IMG/VR virus record: IMGVR_UViG_3300026187_000056
Span: 1-31,916 of that record
Source: a virus
Lineage: Duplodnaviria; Caudoviricetes
DNA: 31,916 bases
Reading direction: 5' to 3' (one strand)
Each line of letters opens with the position of its first letter. Within the stretch, counting starts at the first letter, position 1. This document shows positions 2,911-11,223 of this stretch, piece by piece. Under the pieces are notes generated by a model that saw nothing but the letters and a program-made list of their open reading frames with translations, was not told the DNA's origin and did no database searches. The translations under genes were made by a program, and so were the position numbers.

Positions 2911-2944
2911 GAAATCTCACATGGATATGAGAGGACAAACAACT

Positions 2945-3190
2945 ATGAACACCGACATTATAGATTTTGGCCAATGCGTTCGCAATGCGCAGGAGCGCAC
3001 GTTTGTGCGCCAGGCTGACATCGCAAGGGAACTGGGCGTCCGACCACAATCAGTTGCCAGATGGATTCGTGCCAAAGATGTGAAGTTGTCGATTGCGATA
3101 AAAATCGCTGCCGTTTGGAAATTGGATATCGGGGCATTTATTCATAAATACTCAGATATCAAAAACGCGCAGTGGGATTACAATGAGTGA
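2945..3190 (+). CDS. Cro/XRE-like helix-turn-helix regulator
   Basis: QADIARELGVRPQSVARW HTH; SD GAGGA before ATG 2945. Confidence 0.85.
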   Translation: MNTDIIDFGQCVRNAQERTFVRQADIARELGVRPQSVARWIRAKDVKLSIAIKIAAVWKLDIGAFIHKYSDIKNAQWDYNE

Positions 3191-4309: not shown

Positions 4310-4723
4310 ATGGAAGGGCAAACGTGGAAAGTGAACAGCAAGCACACAAAAGAAAACTTCTTAAAGCATGTCGATGAACTTTTTGAAAAGCATGGATATG
4401 TGAGTTTCAGCTGGGAGACCGGGCAGCAGCGCACTAAGAAGCAGAACAATTCGCTGCATTTGTGGCTTTCGCAGCTGGCCAAGATGTTGAATGATGCCGG
4501 GCTGGATATGAAAAAGACGCTGAAAGCAGAAACAGAGATTCCCTGGACAATGATTTCCGCGAAGGAACATCTTTGGAAGCCAATCCAGCAGATTGTGATC
4601 GGAAAGGAATCAACGGCAGAGGCGCAGCGAAAAGATTATAATGATATTTATGCTGTACTTAGCCGACATTTTTCCGAAAAACATGGAATTCGTGTACCAG
4701 AATGGCCATCGATCAATGATTAA
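4310..4723 (+). CDS. NinB/Orf-like recombination accessory protein
   Basis: RTKKQNNSLHLWL motif and ST-like C-terminal motif; lies near ninG. Confidence 0.6.
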   Translation: MEGQTWKVNSKHTKENFLKHVDELFEKHGYVSFSWETGQQRTKKQNNSLHLWLSQLAKMLNDAGLDMKKTLKAETEIPWTMISAKEHLWKPIQQIVIGKESTAEAQRKDYNDIYAVLSRHFSEKHGIRVPEWPSIND

Positions 4724-5252
4724 TTACAAAATCAGACAAACGTGGCGCGAGTTCAGCAAAGACGCAATTGTCGAAGAGGCGCTGAATCTCAAAACCATCA
4801 AAAAGGATCGCCAGTCTCAGGTTGTGGGCTTGATGGGCGAGCTATGCTTTGGGCGGTATTTAATCGATAACGAAATCGACTTTGAATATCTAGCGAATAA
4901 GAGCATGGATTTTGACTTTGAATCGAACGGCATTTTTCTTGATGTGAAAACTTCTTATTCAAAGTATCAGCCGCAACCGCATTGGATTTGTCGGATACCA
5001 GAATATCAGCATTTTCAGCGATCTGATCTTTATGTTTTTTCTGGCGCCGGTGACGCAGAAGTTCATCTATATGGCTGGATCAGCAAGCATGAATTTTGGT
5101 TCGGCGACAAGAGTTGGCGCGAAGAGGAAGGAACTATCAACGAGATCACTGGCAAGCTGAACCGGGCTGATTGTAGGGTGATGAAGATTGCAGATCTAAA
5201 CCCGATGGATGATCTGGTGACTTTTCTTGCACACAAGGGTGATGCGCACTAG
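4716..5252 (+). CDS. Putative PD-(D/E)XK restriction-endonuclease-like protein
   Basis: GLMGELCF...DFDFESNGIFLDVKTS fits E...D...(D/E)xK; later DLYVF and YGWISK. Start at ATG 4716 overlapping the upstream gene. Confidence 0.55.
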   Translation: MINYKIRQTWREFSKDAIVEEALNLKTIKKDRQSQVVGLMGELCFGRYLIDNEIDFEYLANKSMDFDFESNGIFLDVKTSYSKYQPQPHWICRIPEYQHFQRSDLYVFSGAGDAEVHLYGWISKHEFWFGDKSWREEEGTINEITGKLNRADCRVMKIADLNPMDDLVTFLAHKGDAH

Positions 5253-5811
5253 ACGCTGCTCACTCTGTCGCAAGAAAGTGCCAGCCGAGAATGCTGTAAT
5301 CGGCCAACTGCGGGCGTTTTGCTCGATGGAGCATTTGATTGAATATGCCAGAAGCGACAAGGGCAAAAAGATTGCAGAGAAGGGTTGGAGGCAGCAGAAA
5401 AGTGAGATACTCAAAAAACAGAAAACCTGGCGAGATTGGTGCAAGGAAGCGCAAAAGGAATTCAATGCGTACATTCGGGCCAGAGACGCCGGAAAGCCCT
5501 GCATATCCTGTCACAGATCTTTGTCTGAACGCTCTATTGGCGGGGACTACGATTGTGGTCACTTTCGCAGCGTTGGTTCTGCTCCACATTTGAGATTTCA
5601 CGCTTGGAATGCGCACGGCCAGTGTAAAAAATGCAATCGATATCTGGGCGGCAATTATTCAGAGTATCGGCGAAGATTGCTTACCAGGATTGGAGTAGAT
5701 AAAGTTGACAGTTTGGAAGCCGACTATTCGACAAAGAATTACACTTATCACGATTTGCAGAGAATTATAAAAATCTGCAAAAAACGGCGCAAACGCTATG
5801 GGAATCAATGA
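5242..5811 (+). CDS. ninG: NinG/Rap-family endonuclease
   Basis: CSLC...FCS..H, AQKEFNAYIRARDAGKPCISC, DCGHFRSVGSAPHLRF..WNAHGQCKKCN. Confidence 0.92.
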   Translation: MRTRRCSLCRKKVPAENAVIGQLRAFCSMEHLIEYARSDKGKKIAEKGWRQQKSEILKKQKTWRDWCKEAQKEFNAYIRARDAGKPCISCHRSLSERSIGGDYDCGHFRSVGSAPHLRFHAWNAHGQCKKCNRYLGGNYSEYRRRLLTRIGVDKVDSLEADYSTKNYTYHDLQRIIKICKKRRKRYGNQ

Positions 5812-5962
5812 TCCAGTTGTTCCAAACCAGAGCCAGGAGCAGAAAGACAAGCTGCGCGAGGATCTTGAGCGCCAGATCAAGGAATATTTGGAATCCGGCG
5901 GGAAAATCAAAAACCAGCCGATAATTACGAAAACAGTACACAAAAAAAAGCCCCAGAGGTAG
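5798..5962 (+). CDS. Small SutA-like (RNAP-binding domain) protein, 54 aa (not in ORF track)
   Basis: MGINDPVVPNQSQEQKDKLREDLERQIKEYLESGGKIKNQPIITKTVHKKKPQR; K..R..L....E(F/Y)L..GG(K)I motif. Confidence 0.65.
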   Translation: MGINDPVVPNQSQEQKDKLREDLERQIKEYLESGGKIKNQPIITKTVHKKKPQR

Positions 5963-5978
5963 CATTCTAGGGCTTTTT
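5945..5978. terminator. Bidirectional intrinsic terminator
   Basis: AAAAAGCCC-cAGA-ggtagcat-TCTa-GGGCTTTTT. Confidence 0.65.
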
Positions 5979-5981
5979 AAT

Positions 5982-6009
5982 GACTGATCAATCTGGTAGA
6001 TTATCAGTC
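5982..6009 (+). promoter_or_regulatory. Extended -10 promoter embedded in an inverted repeat
   Basis: TGgTAGATT at 5994-6002 inside GACTGAT-c-AATCT-ggt-AGATT-ATCAGTC. Confidence 0.45.
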
Positions 6010-6445
6010 TGTCGGTGGCGTTGACTGCGCCGGATGTACCGACCTGGGAGAGAGACGAAACAGATCGATACGCCGATGTGCGTATTATCTTGTGTCTCTC
6101 CTGCTAGGTCAACACTACATCTTGCGGTCACCATCGTCCGGTGGGATAAATTTCGACCGAAACTCCGAAATCATGGCAAGCTGATGCCTTTAACTACAGC
6201 TGCGGAAACGTGTAACCGAGCCAGCACTAATCCTGCTCTGTCGCGCCCATGACAACAGGGAACTGCAAACCCGAAAGGGACAAAGCCTGGCGAGGCAGCG
6301 AAGGAACGGGATGCGAGTGCATTCCTAGTACGCAGGGCAGACTCACCGCGAGGGTGGGCTGAGTAATGAGTACCACGGCGAAAGCCGTCCGCTCCGGCGG
6401 GTGCAAGGGCCAATCGCAGACGGCGCTGTCTGGGCTTTTGCAGGG
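6010..6445 (+). ncRNA. Large structured non-coding RNA of unrecognised family
   Basis: Seven stacked helices in 6013-6136 with G-U pairs that work only on the + strand. These are followed by hairpins with GAAA loops (6201-6212, 6270-6279, 6375-6388) and a cUCCGg loop (6389-6400). No credible ORF. Confidence 0.75.
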
Positions 6446-6477
6446 GAAAATGGGTGAATTGTGTTTGGGGGTAGCGA

Positions 6478-7956
6478 ATGATCAATTTATACGAGCATCA
6501 ACAGGCGGCAATCGATCAAATTCGGATGTCGTTCAAATCTGGGAATGAGAGGGTTTTGCTGGCCGCGCCATGCGGATTCGGGAAAACGATTGTCAGCGCT
6601 TGGATGGCAAAAGAGGCGCTCAGTCGCGGCAAGAAAGTGCTGTTTGCAGCTGACAGGGTGAAACTGGTCGATCAGACTCTGGCCGCTTTTGACAAGTTTG
6701 GGATCGATTACGGGGTGATCCAGGCTGATCATCCGCTGACCGATTACAGCAAGCCATGCCAGATCGCCAGCGTTCAGACACTTGCCCGGCGCAAACATAT
6801 CCCAGGATATGATCTCTGCATCGTTGACGAATGCCATACGGCATACAAATCAATGACCAAAATCATGGATCGATACAATGTTGCCAAATATATCGGATTG
6901 TCGGCAACGCCATATAGCCGGGGACTCGGGCTGATCTGGCAGGATCTGATCACACCAATCACGACCGAGAAACTGATCGAACTGGGATTTCTGACGCCGA
7001 TCCATTACTTTGGTGGGCGCTCTGTGGACGTTTCTAAGCTAAAAACAAGGGCTCTTGCTACTGGCGGCTCAGATTACGATCCAGGCGCCCTGGAAGCCGC
7101 CACAGACGCCGATACGGGCTTGGTGGGTGATATCGTTCGGAACTGGCTGGAACACGGCGAGAATCGCCAGACAATCGCATTCTGCCCGTCTATCAAGCAG
7201 AGCAAGTTTCTGGTGGATGAATTCAAGCGGCACGGCATCGAAGCCAGGCACATTGATGGATATGACGATGAAGGTACGCGCAGGGAGATCTACCAGGGCC
7301 ACGAATCCGGCGAATTCAAGATACTTAGCTGTTCCAAACTTCTGGGGGTTGGGTACGATAGTCCGAACACCAGCTGCTTGATCGACGCCAGGCCGTCAAA
7401 ATCGACGATTATGTACCAGCAGGCTGCGGGTAGGGTGATCAGATCCGCACCGGGCAAAGAATATGCGATCTACCTGGATCACGCCGGGAACGTCAAAAGG
7501 CACGGAATGAGCGAATTGCTTGTTCCAGACTCCCTGGATACCAGAGAAAACAAATTCTCCGAGCGCAAGCAGGTCAAGAAGGATGCCCCAGAAGAATCGG
7601 CGGTGAATGACTGTGAAAGCTGCGGCCAAATTATGCAGGGGCTGAAATGCAGCAGTTGCGGCCATGAGATTCACATCACCAAAGCACTGGAAAGCACCAA
7701 CGAACTGCTGGTTCGCATGACCGGCAAGAAAAAAGCATTCAGCCAGGAAGAGAAATCGATCTGGTACTCAAATCTGCTGAAATATGCCAGGCAGTCTGGA
7801 TTTAAAGACGGCTGGGCTGCATATCAATACAAGTCAAAATTCAAAGTCTGGCCCAGGCAAATAAAACTCGATGTGAATGCGCCGATACAGCCAGAAGTGA
7901 TAAATTATATACAATCAAGACAAATCGCCTATTCCCGATGGAAGGCGAAATCATGA
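6478..7956 (+). CDS. Superfamily 2 (DExH) helicase with C-terminal Zn ribbon
   Basis: APCGFGKT Walker A, IVDECH, GLSATP, QAAGRVIR, YLDHAGN; CESC...CSSCGH. Confidence 0.95.
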   Translation: MINLYEHQQAAIDQIRMSFKSGNERVLLAAPCGFGKTIVSAWMAKEALSRGKKVLFAADRVKLVDQTLAAFDKFGIDYGVIQADHPLTDYSKPCQIASVQTLARRKHIPGYDLCIVDECHTAYKSMTKIMDRYNVAKYIGLSATPYSRGLGLIWQDLITPITTEKLIELGFLTPIHYFGGRSVDVSKLKTRALATGGSDYDPGALEAATDADTGLVGDIVRNWLEHGENRQTIAFCPSIKQSKFLVDEFKRHGIEARHIDGYDDEGTRREIYQGHESGEFKILSCSKLLGVGYDSPNTSCLIDARPSKSTIMYQQAAGRVIRSAPGKEYAIYLDHAGNVKRHGMSELLVPDSLDTRENKFSERKQVKKDAPEESAVNDCESCGQIMQGLKCSSCGHEIHITKALESTNELLVRMTGKKKAFSQEEKSIWYSNLLKYARQSGFKDGWAAYQYKSKFKVWPRQIKLDVNAPIQPEVINYIQSRQIAYSRWKAKS

Positions 7957-9784: not shown

Positions 9785-9832
9785 TCCCTGCATCAGCTGC
9801 TTGGGGCGGCTGCGCATTTTGTACGGGGTACA
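9777..9832 (+). promoter_or_regulatory. Extended -10 promoter plus two leader hairpins
   Basis: TGcTATAAT (9777-9785); CAGCTGC-TTGGG-GCGGCTG; TGTAC-GGG-GTACA covering the SD of ATG 9834. Confidence 0.65.
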
Positions 9833-9833
9833 G

Positions 9834-10469
9834 ATGGCAAAAGACTTGATAGAGCATTCGGTTGTCTCAATAGACGATCTGATACCATACGCTCTAAATT
9901 CTCGCACTCATTCCGATGCTCAAGTGGCGCAGATTGCTGCCAGCATATCGGAGTTCGGATTTCTCAATCCAATCATCGTGGACGGCGAAAACGGCATAAT
10001 TGCTGGGCATGGCCGCGTATTAGCTGCCCGTAAACTGGGCAAAACCCATCTTCCAGTAGTCCAGGCAAAGCATCTGACAGAGGCTCAAAAAAGGGCTTAT
10101 GTCATCGCCGACAACCGCTTGGCTCTAAACGCCGGGTGGGACAATGAAATTCTTAGATTAGAAATTGAAGATTTGAAAGAACTTGATTTTGATGTCACGA
10201 TTTTGGGATTCGATGACAGTGAGCTGGATGCTTTATCATTTGGAGATGAATCTGATGTTCTGGATAAAATGCCAGACCTTCCAAGTGGTGATAAAGAACC
10301 TTTTCAGCAAAAAACTTTCATTCTGCATGACGAGCAAGTCTCTATTGTTGATGATGCAATCACTTTGGCGCGAACTAATCCGCTTGCTGATACCGGAATC
10401 AACGAAAATAGCAACGGAAACGCTCTTGCTCTGATTTGTAGTCAGTGGATAGAGGCCAATCGTGACTAG
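9834..10469 (+). CDS. ParB/Srx-like N-terminal domain protein of a DNA-modification module
   Basis: LIPYALNSRTHS..QVAQIAASISEFGFLNPII..IIAGHGRVLAA..AYVIADNRL; no methyltransferase domain follows. Confidence 0.9.
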   Translation: MAKDLIEHSVVSIDDLIPYALNSRTHSDAQVAQIAASISEFGFLNPIIVDGENGIIAGHGRVLAARKLGKTHLPVVQAKHLTEAQKRAYVIADNRLALNAGWDNEILRLEIEDLKELDFDVTILGFDDSELDALSFGDESDVLDKMPDLPSGDKEPFQQKTFILHDEQVSIVDDAITLARTNPLADTGINENSNGNALALICSQWIEANRD

Positions 10470-11223
10470 CGCAAAAGACATCGCCATCAAGCCAATAACT
10501 GCGCAAGCAGCTAATGCTCTAGTGAAGCGGGTGCATTATAGCGGTAAGCACACTCAGAACAGCCAATTGCATTTCGGGGTATTTTTAAGAGGAAGGCTTG
10601 AAGGGGCAATGCAATTCGGCCCTTCAATAGATAAGCGCAAAACGCAGTCGATTGTTGCGGGAACCAAATGGAATGGATTCATCGAGCTTAACCGAATGGC
10701 GTTTTCAGATATCTTGCCGCGCAACAGCGAGAGTAGAGCGCTTTCTATAGCATTCAAATTGATTCGCAATCATTATCCACACATTGAATGGATTATCAGC
10801 TTTGCTGATGCAACGCAATGCGGCGATGGTGCAATTTATCGCGCATCTGGCTTCATATTGACCGGAATTAAAAAAAATGTGCAGATGCTACTAATGCCAG
10901 ACGGATCAATAATCGCAAAAAAAACGCTCGATAATCCAAATAACATGGGGCCAAGTGGGGCGTTTGGGAGCCGTGCAGCAAAGGAATCTGGCGCTGTGCC
11001 ATTGCCGGGATATCAACTCCGTTATATTTATTTTCTCAACCGAGATGCCCGCAACCGATTAACAGTTCCAGAGCTGCCATTCAGCAAAATTGACGAAATG
11101 GGCGCAGGTATGTACAAAGGAAAATCAAAGCGCGTGAAGCAGGCTAATTCTGGTGACCAACCGGGAAGCGGCGGGGCAGCACCGACCCATGCGCTCCAAT
11201 TTCAAGTAGAAAATTCCACATGA
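10462..11223 (+). CDS. mom: Mom-family GNAT-fold DNA adenine hypermodification enzyme
   Basis: HYSGK, ELNRMAFSD.LPRNSESRALS, P.IEWIISFAD..QC..GAIYRASGF..TG and QLRYIYFL match the Mu Mom motif pattern; located just before terS. Confidence 0.85.
   Translation: MTSAKDIAIKPITAQAANALVKRVHYSGKHTQNSQLHFGVFLRGRLEGAMQFGPSIDKRKTQSIVAGTKWNGFIELNRMAFSDILPRNSESRALSIAFKLIRNHYPHIEWIISFADATQCGDGAIYRASGFILTGIKKNVQMLLMPDGSIIAKKTLDNPNNMGPSGAFGSRAAKESGAVPLPGYQLRYIYFLNRDARNRLTVPELPFSKIDEMGAGMYKGKSKRVKQANSGDQPGSGGAAPTHALQFQVENST
11130..11198 (+). tRNA. Non-canonical D-armless tRNA-Gly(ACC)-like element inside the mom 3' end
   Basis: Acceptor GCGCGTG/CATGCGC followed by TCCA; anticodon arm TCTGG-TGACCAA-CCGGG; T-arm GGCGG-GGCAGCA-CCGaCC. 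Confidence 0.7.

What the first reader, a model, noticed from the sequence alone, without database searches (positions are those of the whole stretch)
6010..6445. ~430-nt densely structured non-coding RNA between a terminator and the helicase gene
Seen: this is the largest gene-free gap in a tightly packed genome, and it follows a terminator and a candidate promoter. The 5' domain is a 124-nt rod with these helices: 6013-18/6131-36, 6022-29/6123-30, 6032-38/6116-22, 6041-47/6104-10, 6050-56/6094-100, 6062-65/6087-90 and 6068-73/6080-85. Several G-U pairs work only on the + strand. The 3' domain has CCC-GAAA-GGG, GGGAUGC-GAGU-GCAUUCC, CAGaCUCACC-GCGAG-GGUGGGCUG, ACGGC-GAAA-GCCGU, CCGC-UCCG-GCGG and UGCAAGGGCC/GGCUUUUGCA enclosing CAGACG/UGUCUG. 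GNRA and UNCG tetraloops are hallmarks of folded RNA. I see no group I/II intron, RNase P, tmRNA or SRP signature. Inference: a large ncRNA of unknown class. It lies in a replication region with no initiator gene and is followed by G-runs, so an origin/primer RNA (ColE1 RNA II-like) or a helicase-regulating leader are testable ideas.
Basis: partly seen in the sequence, partly recalled or inferred. Interest (0 to 1): 0.85.

Follow-up and report, generated by a model that had tools for sequence, protein, structure and literature searches.

The report
Antisense-controlled pseudoknotted phage origin RNA
The gap is a conserved, non-coding, heavily pseudoknotted element of about 445 bases with a predicted small antisense partner, sitting ahead of the helicase gene in aquatic phages that have no recognisable replication-initiator gene, and it likely starts phage DNA replication as an RNA, in the manner of RNA-based plasmid origins.

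Summary
The element is real and more elaborate than reported. It runs from about 6010 to 6455 and is conserved in 30 of 70 helicase loci; a related second class covers 27 more. In a 34-sequence alignment of the 3' core, 10 of 44,551 column pairs covary at E<0.05, all at least 91% standard pairs. The core holds a long-range helix and six pseudoknot pairings of unequal support. A sense promoter sits just ahead of the 5' motif. A convergent promoter lies 55-72 nt inside (52 of 61 rows) and a minus-strand terminator upstream (39 of 44), predicting a ~135-nt antisense RNA over the 5' hairpin. No integrase or RepL/O-like initiator was found in the near-complete genomes tested, while some cultured relatives carry a Rep-type gene in this slot. 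There is no Rfam, ColE1 or plasmid match. Best reading (0.55): an RNA-based replication origin with RNA I/RNA II logic, as in MRB and ColE1 plasmids, but a new RNA family. Origin activity is untested, expression evidence is weak, and 5'-domain covariation was not significant.

The parts
5798..5962 (+). Upstream gene, 54-aa protein with a SutA RNAP-binding domain (context, not part of the RNA)
   Evidence: Pfam PF20661, E 1.3e-7
5941..5978 (-). Intrinsic terminator for the predicted antisense RNA; bidirectional in the window
   Evidence: Listed on the minus strand. A-run plus GC hairpin in 39 of 44 members; 18 of the 39 lack a plus-strand T tail
5941..6077 (-). Predicted antisense RNA of about 137 nt (RNA I-like), complementary to the first ~67 nt of the long RNA
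   Evidence: Promoter and terminator; multi-hairpin fold, z -5.7 including the terminator. Transcript not observed
5974..6002 (+). Predicted sense sigma70 promoter (TTTTTA-17-TAGATT; weak -35 in the window, TTGCAA/TTGTCA in relatives)
   Evidence: Best site ends 3-8 nt before the 5' anchor in 53 of 61 rows, one of them mis-anchored; 59 of 61 score above the shuffle mean. Not listed
6011..6044 (+). Nascent 5' hairpin P1 (GUCGGU/ACCGAC with inner GGCG/CGCC); its loop is the likely antisense target
   Evidence: The 45-nt prefix folds to P1 in 13 of 14 members folded; GUCGG invariant in A3; loop is the most variable window in one of four subgroups
6013..6136 (+). Long rod, mutually exclusive with P1
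   Evidence: All seven helices pair; rods fold in relatives; no significant covariation
6084..6112 (-). Predicted antisense promoter TTGACC-17-GATAAT
   Evidence: start at +55 to +72 in 52 of 61 rows; TTGACA-17-GATAAT in L294
6139..6171 (+). H-type pseudoknot PK1 (6139-42/6156-59; 6150-54/6167-71)
   Evidence: Pair 6140-6158 E 0.01, pair 6152-6169 E 0.12; 98% and 97% of cells paired
6175..6201 (+). H-type pseudoknot PK2 (6175-78/6185-88; 6179-83/6197-6201)
   Evidence: Second stem 98.5% paired; cognate over swapped scores; no single pair at E<0.05
6201..6214 (+). GAAA tetraloop hairpin
   Evidence: Three pairs at E<0.05
6220..6291 (+). Pseudoknot b (GCCAG 6220-24 / CUGGC 6287-91)
   Evidence: At least 4 bp in 34 of 34; cognate 15.0 vs swapped 8.0; 17 distinct helices; flanking pair 6217-6295 E 0.02
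6232..6259 (+). Hairpin P5, whose loop CCCAU (6246-50) pairs with AUGGG (6450-54): pseudoknot c
   Evidence: Pair 6241-6252 E<0.01; c at least 4 bp in 34 of 34, cognate 17.2 vs swapped 11.7
6263..6443 (+). Long-range helix d (CUGCAAA 6263-69 / UUUGCAG 6437-43) closing the 3' domain; local alternative e uses 6402-6409
   Evidence: d 100% paired, 6 of 7 pairs with double changes; pair 6266-6440 E 0.01; cognate/swapped 22.2/11.9 for d, 13.1/9.7 for e
6294..6430 (+). Pseudoknot g (GGCAGCG 6294-6300 / CGCUGUC 6424-30)
   Evidence: At least 4 bp in 25 of 31; cognate 13.9 vs swapped 9.9; 17 distinct helices; best pair not significant, E 5
6338..6400 (+). Three hairpins around invariant AGUA; CC 6373-74 pairs with GG 6444-45 (2-bp pseudoknot)
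   Evidence: Hairpin 6375-6388 has three pairs at E<0.05; pair 6373-6445 E 0.02
6478..7956 (+). SF2 helicase (RadD-like), the constant downstream partner
   Evidence: phrog_16 E 6e-89; RadD E 1.7e-20; downstream on the same strand in 32 of 34 motif-only loci with at least 2.6 kb, window excluded

Best explanation
The gap holds a conserved, non-coding, multi-pseudoknot element that is likely transcribed as a ~445-nt RNA and likely serves in cis as the phage's replication origin, with a predicted ~135-nt antisense RNA that would switch it off. Shown: the folded core, the absence of a conserved reading frame, the two facing promoter-like sites, the minus-strand terminator, the link to the helicase and the absence of a recognisable initiator. 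Inferred steps: (1) host sigma70 polymerase starts at about 6010; (2) hairpin P1 forms first; (3) without the antisense RNA, P1 refolds into the rod and the core folds, closing helix d and pseudoknot c over the 3' end; (4) the folded RNA stays at its template and either supplies a primer/R-loop or loads the RadD-like helicase and primase, doing the job RepL or O-like proteins do in relatives; (5) the antisense RNA kisses the P1 loop and blocks this, which would set timing or exclude phages with the same loop. Which of the two routes in step 4 is used cannot be told.
For: Core structure: 10 of 44,551 pairs at E<0.05 under a tree-based null, all at least 91% standard pairs; 7 of 43,365 in a second alignment of 31; 90.4% of cells paired and 38 of 60 pairs with double changes, against 32-41% paired when slid. 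Non-coding: 301 of 374 indels are not multiples of three. Antisense layout; it recurs in classes with no detectable core homology (L005/6, L007/8). Size and two-RNA layout match MRB origins (488 bp; RNA II at least 465 nt, RNA I 68 nt; PMC3035462). No integrase in 5 relatives' records (none among window ORFs), no RepL or phrog_678 initiator in the window and four relatives rated 99-100% complete, and no initiator or DNA polymerase among the ORFs scanned. Slot: directly ahead of the homologous helicase, HS1 has RepL, Vibrio 1.148.O an annotated RepL, AP1 a replication/partition protein, PS-1 a 613-nt gene-free stretch with z -4.8. L294 pairs a short form of the RNA with a 114-aa protein matching only positions 218-289 of 346 of an O-like initiator. 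One copy per genome in 5 of 5. The first downstream gene varies and L044, L048, L055, L063-65 have their own promoter behind the RNA. Transcript-dependent origins exist in lytic phage c2 (PMC7150918) and mycobacterial prophages (PMC7157519).
Against: No origin activity was measured. GC skew shows no inflection at the locus. No sequence similarity to ColE1 or to any plasmid; the MRB sequence could not be obtained. No 3' terminator, so in most members the RNA probably reads on into the next gene, as a leader would. The G-runs are explained by pairing, so no dedicated R-loop tract is evident. 5'-domain covariation is not significant. The antisense promoter exceeds shuffles only modestly per sequence (mean excess 1.35) and the rows are related. 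Loop hypervariability ranks 1 of 469 and 11 of 440 in two subgroups but 140 of 407 and 60 of 473 in the others. Phages with no sign of lysogeny have no obvious need for copy control. Five further relatives (OS31, PA2, Baldr, FoX2, Alux-21) show neither a clear initiator nor a comparable gap in the slot. RNA evidence is a few unstranded contigs of depth 2-4.
Confidence: 0.55

Rival explanations
1. The RNA is an antisense-controlled leader that sets how much transcription enters the early operon containing the helicase (attenuation or antitermination, giving timing or immunity), and the origin lies elsewhere.
For: No 3' terminator; a start codon follows 14-51 nt behind the element in most members; helicase is always downstream on the same strand; alternative helices d/e and P1/rod suggest a switch.
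Against: The next gene differs between members, and six members have a separate promoter behind the RNA. No terminator hairpin or occluded ribosome-binding site was seen in either state. Six pseudoknot pairings are more than known attenuators need (recalled). It leaves the missing initiator unexplained.
Confidence: 0.22
2. The core is a trans-acting ornate RNA (GOLLD/ROOL-like scaffold, helicase cofactor or anti-defence decoy) cut out of the transcript; the antisense RNA only tunes its level.
For: Self-closed core of about 320 nt; RNA-library contigs cover the core, 6143-6462, not the 5' end, in two runs of one study; parts of the core occur in unrelated phages without this helicase nearby (L081, L294).
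Against: Always in the replication region; several different RNA classes fill the same slot, as alternative origin types do in c2-like phages; contig depth is only 2-4.
Confidence: 0.15
3. The structure acts as single-stranded DNA (an ssi/oriC-like primase or helicase loading site), and transcription only opens the duplex.
For: Covariation cannot tell RNA from ssDNA; Weinberg et al. note this for plasmid motifs (PMC5737381).
Against: An invariant U-G pair and other G-U pairs fit only the + strand; GNRA and UNCG loops and A-rich pseudoknot linkers; a positioned promoter and an antisense unit.
Confidence: 0.06
4. The gap is a degenerate or recoded protein gene.
For: Short ORFs overlap it in the window (72, 60 and 104 aa).
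Against: No family match for those scanned; 301 of 374 indels break frame; median longest open stretch 59 codons.
Confidence: 0.02

Closest known systems
MRB (marine RNA-based) plasmid origins, pB1067 (PMC3035462; parts 1-4 of 6 of the text and the supplementary figure text read)
   Same: About 490-bp Rep-less region; long RNA of at least 465 nt plus a short antisense RNA with its own terminator; specificity set by loop sequence; RNA II mechanism unknown.
   Different: There RNA I (68 nt) lies wholly inside RNA II. Here the predicted antisense RNA is about 135 nt, overlaps the first ~67 nt and ends upstream of the sense promoter. Here it is in phages with their own helicase. Sequence homology could not be tested directly; no PAGEV or other Rfam hit.
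ColE1 RNA II / RNA I (PMC8683028, passages)
   Same: Convergent promoters, antisense RNA against the 5' end of a long structured RNA, kissing-loop logic.
   Different: No sequence similarity (RNAI 22.6 bits against a cut-off of 47). No Rop seen. Pseudoknotted core; phage helicase and primase nearby.
Lactococcal phage c2 (Ceduovirus) origin with the PE1 transcript (PMC7150918, passages)
   Same: Lytic phage; non-coding transcript needed for origin function; several unrelated origin types in one slot; can adjoin divergent gene clusters.
   Different: No antisense RNA or pseudoknot core in the passages read; c2 origins need no phage protein; Gram-positive host.
RNA-based origins of extrachromosomal mycobacterial prophages (PMC7157519, passages)
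   Same: Non-coding RNA region of 400-500 bp takes the place of repA in related phages.
   Different: Those phages are temperate and carry parABS; none was seen here.
GOLLD, ROOL, ARRPOF, GEBRO, PAGEV (PMC5737381, passages)
   Same: Large structured RNAs of mobile elements; ARRPOF, GEBRO and PAGEV lie in replication regions.
   Different: No Rfam match at gathering score in the window or 20 related loci.

Membership tests
Any Rfam 15 family | Covariance-model score at or above the gathering threshold | tested here: not met
   0 hits in the window and in 20 loci; best sub-threshold hits are terminator-driven
ColE1-type origin | Sequence homology to the ColE1 origin | tested here: not met
   Profiles and model against NC_001371: no hit in the origin region; no plasmid match
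ColE1-type origin | Antisense RNA complementary to the 5' end of the long RNA | tested here: inconclusive
   Promoter, terminator and fold predicted and positionally conserved; transcript not observed
ColE1-type origin | Persistent RNA-DNA hybrid cut by RNase H and extended by Pol I | not testable with these tools
   Needs biochemistry
MRB replicon | About 500-bp region without Rep ORF or iterons | tested here: met
   515-nt gap, no conserved frame, no RepL or O-like gene; iterons judged by eye only
MRB replicon | 68-nt RNA I with two stem-loops wholly inside RNA II | tested here: not met
   Predicted antisense RNA about 135 nt with three to four stem-loops, ending upstream of the sense start
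MRB replicon | Homology to the 110-bp RNA I core of pB1067 | tested here: inconclusive
   Record not in the collection; blastn against 72,556 plasmids found nothing
MRB replicon | Autonomous replication and loop-specific incompatibility | not testable with these tools
   Loop variability only partly supportive
tmRNA / tRNA | tRNA-like domain and tag frame | tested here: not met
   ARAGORN found 0 genes; no Rfam hit
Group I / group II intron | Interrupts a gene and carries the catalytic core | tested here: not met
   Flanking genes are whole (helicase matches from residue 1); no Rfam hit
Fremin et al. 2023 viral csRNAs (PMC10690425) | Listed among the 8,495 IMG/VR candidates (29-151 nt) | tested here: inconclusive
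   Five motifs absent from files 3, 5 and 6; file 4 was not searched for them, and two zip files and three large files could not be read, so a fragment may be listed there

The most novel reading that the evidence does not exclude
The folded core is an RNA initiator: it replaces the origin-binding domain of an O/RepL protein and loads the phage helicase directly. L294 would be an intermediate, with the RNA beside an O-like protein reduced to its C-terminal domain, and three relatives keep only a zinc-finger remnant of primase, so the RNA may also supply the primer.
Probability: 0.2. Interest if true: 0.92.

Novelty: new variant of a known kind. Interest (0 to 1): 0.76.

Why it matters
How helicase-primase phages without an initiator protein start replication is open. 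This gives a bounded 530-bp candidate origin with a predicted control RNA and a covariation-backed map, so it can be tested with one cloning step. If true, it would be an antisense-controlled RNA origin in apparently lytic phages, a further independent RNA replicon family after ColE1 and MRB, and one of the most pseudoknotted phage RNAs, worth a cryo-EM structure. Even under the rival readings it is an uncatalogued large structured RNA family.

Tried and rejected
Rfam by gathering and E-value: nothing above threshold. blastn of the element against cultured phages and plasmids: no match; PS-1 gap matched only YA3. GTDB pattern scan: 78 loci, none matching beyond the motif, so no host. A pattern for the L007/L047 class gave 120 loci, only one of them in this context. 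A looser core pattern gave 119 loci and no new member. Covariation in class 2 (18 rows) and in the 5' domain (24 and 16 rows): no pair at E<0.05; the L010-group 5' alignment had five over-long rows. Pairing ACUC 6162-65 with GAGU 6368-71, and of d with GCAG 6331-34: cognate no better or little better than swapped, so not claimed. mis-bracketed two crossing pseudoknots and is superseded. The 5'-core model did not hit L005/6, L007/8, L044, L047, L032, L048, L051, PS-1 or ColE1; the YA3 hit (E 0.02) overlaps the helicase start and is treated as chance. The MRB origin sequence was not obtained. Parts of the element without RNA-contig cover are no finding. Group I intron, RNase P, tmRNA and HDV-like ribozyme resemblances were considered from recall and dropped. 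Literature searches found no description of this element; subscription papers are not covered.

Full report
Setting. The window is an essentially complete 31.9-kb tailed-phage genome: its ends overlap by 126 exact bases and it is rated 99% complete. It encodes Sak, exonuclease, SSB, an HTH protein, primase, NinB, NinG, a SutA-domain protein, an SF2 helicase and structural genes, with no integrase, initiator or DNA polymerase hit among the 47 ORFs scanned. The helicase's best solved relative is RadD. The host is unknown; Gammaproteobacteria is an inference from the SutA domain and the nearest cultured relatives.

Observation. The + strand folds at z -3.8, the - strand at -1.0. Folding energy alone does not single out the locus: the core scores -0.3 and two of 14 sampled windows elsewhere score near -3. 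The case rests on comparison.

Homologues. Of 70 loci found with the helicase, 30 carry this element (class 1) and 27 a second class (26 by motif, plus L044). Class 2 is linked to class 1 through L063-65, which share the two 5' pseudoknots. Six loci hold other structured gaps (L005/6, L007-9, L047; z -4.2, -2.3 and -4.4 for L005, L007, L047). Five end at or within the helicase, L060 holds only 1.1 kb upstream, and L070 (34% identity) has a short gap. Many loci are near-duplicates. Searching by RNA motif alone gave 33 viral and 56 metagenome loci; of the 34 metagenome loci with at least 2.6 kb downstream, after removing the window's own record, 32 have the helicase 0.2-3.4 kb downstream on the same strand. 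The element occurs once per genome in 5 of 5.

Core structure. In A2 (34 of 50 unique sequences: 14 redundant and 2 short dropped) my own G-test with average-product correction and a tree-simulated null found 10 of 44,551 pairs at E<0.05, all at least 91% standard pairs. A second alignment (31 of 115 rows after a 97% filter, without the L010 group) gave 7 of 43,365, all at least 97%. This is not R-scape. The named structure pairs in 90.4% of cells with double changes at 38 of 60 pairs, against 32-41% when slid. The core has two tandem H-type pseudoknots, a GAAA hairpin, hairpin P5, long-range helix d, and pairings b, c, g and CC/GG that cross other helices. A swap test supports b (15.0 vs 8.0), c (17.2 vs 11.7), d (22.2 vs 11.9) and g (11.2 vs 7.9) in A2, with two control region pairs at 7.1 vs 6.3 and 6.5 vs 6.9. 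PK2 and g have no individually significant pair. There is no coding signal: 301 of 374 indels break frame.

5' domain and antisense unit. A short hairpin P1 forms in the nascent 45 nt of 13 of 14 members folded, and longer rods form later; covariation here was not significant. The best sense promoter ends 3-8 nt before the 5' anchor in 53 of 61 rows, and the best minus-strand promoter starts at +55 to +72 in 52 of 61 rows. Three rows were mis-anchored and one lacks most of the 5' domain; all are counted as examined. The rows fall into about six lineages and are not independent. A minus-strand terminator lies upstream in 39 of 44 members, and 18 of these lack a plus-strand T tail. The predicted antisense RNA folds into several hairpins in 8 of 8 examples, z -1.5 to -5.7 with the terminator included. 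The P1 loop is the most variable 7-nt window in the L010 subgroup (rank 1 of 469), high in a second (11 of 440), and unremarkable in two others.

Expression. Three RNA-library runs from two studies (one only guessed to be RNA) each have their longest contig inside the element: 6195-6462, 6143-6388 and 6070-6329, depth 2-4, unstranded; two of the runs also hold scattered pieces elsewhere. This is a weak hint, not proof of transcription.

Function. No integrase was found in five relatives' records, and no RepL or O-like initiator in the window and four relatives rated complete; family scans of 114 of their ORFs, chosen as mostly non-structural, showed none either. Among cultured phages with a 30-35% identical helicase, the slot ahead of it holds RepL in HS1, an annotated RepL with short repeats in Vibrio 1.148.O (no Pfam hit), a replication/partition protein in AP1, long poorly annotated gaps in PS-1, YA3 and ENT39118, and neither in OS31, PA2, Baldr, S-H1, FoX2 and Alux-21. 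L294 carries a shorter RNA with P5, c and d, a near-consensus antisense promoter, and a 114-aa protein matching only the C-terminal part of an O-like initiator, closed upstream by a stop. In G001, G002 and G004 the primase-like gene is a 141-151-aa zinc-finger protein with no Toprim hit. The first gene behind the RNA varies, and six members have their own downstream promoter. Together these favour an origin over a gene-specific leader. Against it: no 3' terminator, no skew inflection, no dedicated G tract, and no clear reason for copy control in phages without lysogeny genes.

Comparison. The layout works like MRB and ColE1 origins but is a member of neither: sequence tests against ColE1 and plasmids failed and the antisense geometry differs from MRB. 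Precedents for RNA-dependent phage origins are c2 and mycobacterial prophages. Papers seen: PMC3035462, parts 1-4 of 6 and supplementary figure text; passages only of PMC7157519, PMC7150918, PMC8683028, PMC5737381 and PMC10690425; for the last, key supplements could not be read and might list a fragment. Nine searches found no description of this element.

Verdict. A real, uncatalogued, multi-pseudoknot RNA family with a predicted antisense regulator. Most likely an RNA-based origin (0.55); leader 0.22; trans-acting RNA 0.15. New variant of a known kind; interest 0.76.

Noticed in passing
window 5798-5962: Phage-encoded 54-aa protein with a SutA RNA-polymerase-binding domain; also found in G001, G002 and G003 (just under the cut-off in G003). 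It may tune host polymerase.
   Followed up: partly
L294:3840-4190 and 4641-4985: Short form of the RNA followed by a protein that is only the C-terminal domain of an O-like initiator, in a phage with no helicase hit within 4 kb.
   Followed up: partly
L081:470-780: P5, d and c elements retained in an unrelated AT-rich phage, followed by a very AT-rich tract with TA repeats that looks like an unwinding element.
   Followed up: partly
L159:4334-4759, L161:6753-7196, L166:16197-16652: Primase-like genes reduced to 141-151 aa with a CHC2 zinc finger and no Toprim hit, directly behind the helicase.
   Followed up: no
L005:2510-2990, L007:2520-3000, L047:300-900: Further structured ~450-nt classes ahead of the helicase; L005 and L007 keep the two-promoter layout but show no detectable core homology.
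   Followed up: partly
L104:2390-3000 (Pseudomonas phage PS-1) and L110:1500-2229 (YA3): Structured gaps between cro and the helicase in cultured temperate phages (z -4.8 and -2.7); PS-1 is a practical test system.
   Followed up: partly
L107:2790-2976 and L108:1395-1603: G-rich stretches ahead of the helicase in OS31 and PA2, each behind a ~97-aa unknown ORF; possibly a third origin type.
   Followed up: no
window 5980-6008: Imperfect palindrome over the sense promoter; a hairpin in the antisense RNA, but it could also be an operator for the HTH protein at 2921-3190.
   Followed up: no
window 9801-11223: ParB-like nuclease-domain gene next to a Mom-family gene: a likely DNA-modification pair; relative G003 has a queuine tRNA-ribosyltransferase-like gene nearby instead.
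   Followed up: no
window 6259-6359: Close relatives swap this ~100-nt block for 94 other letters while keeping both flanks.
   Followed up: partly
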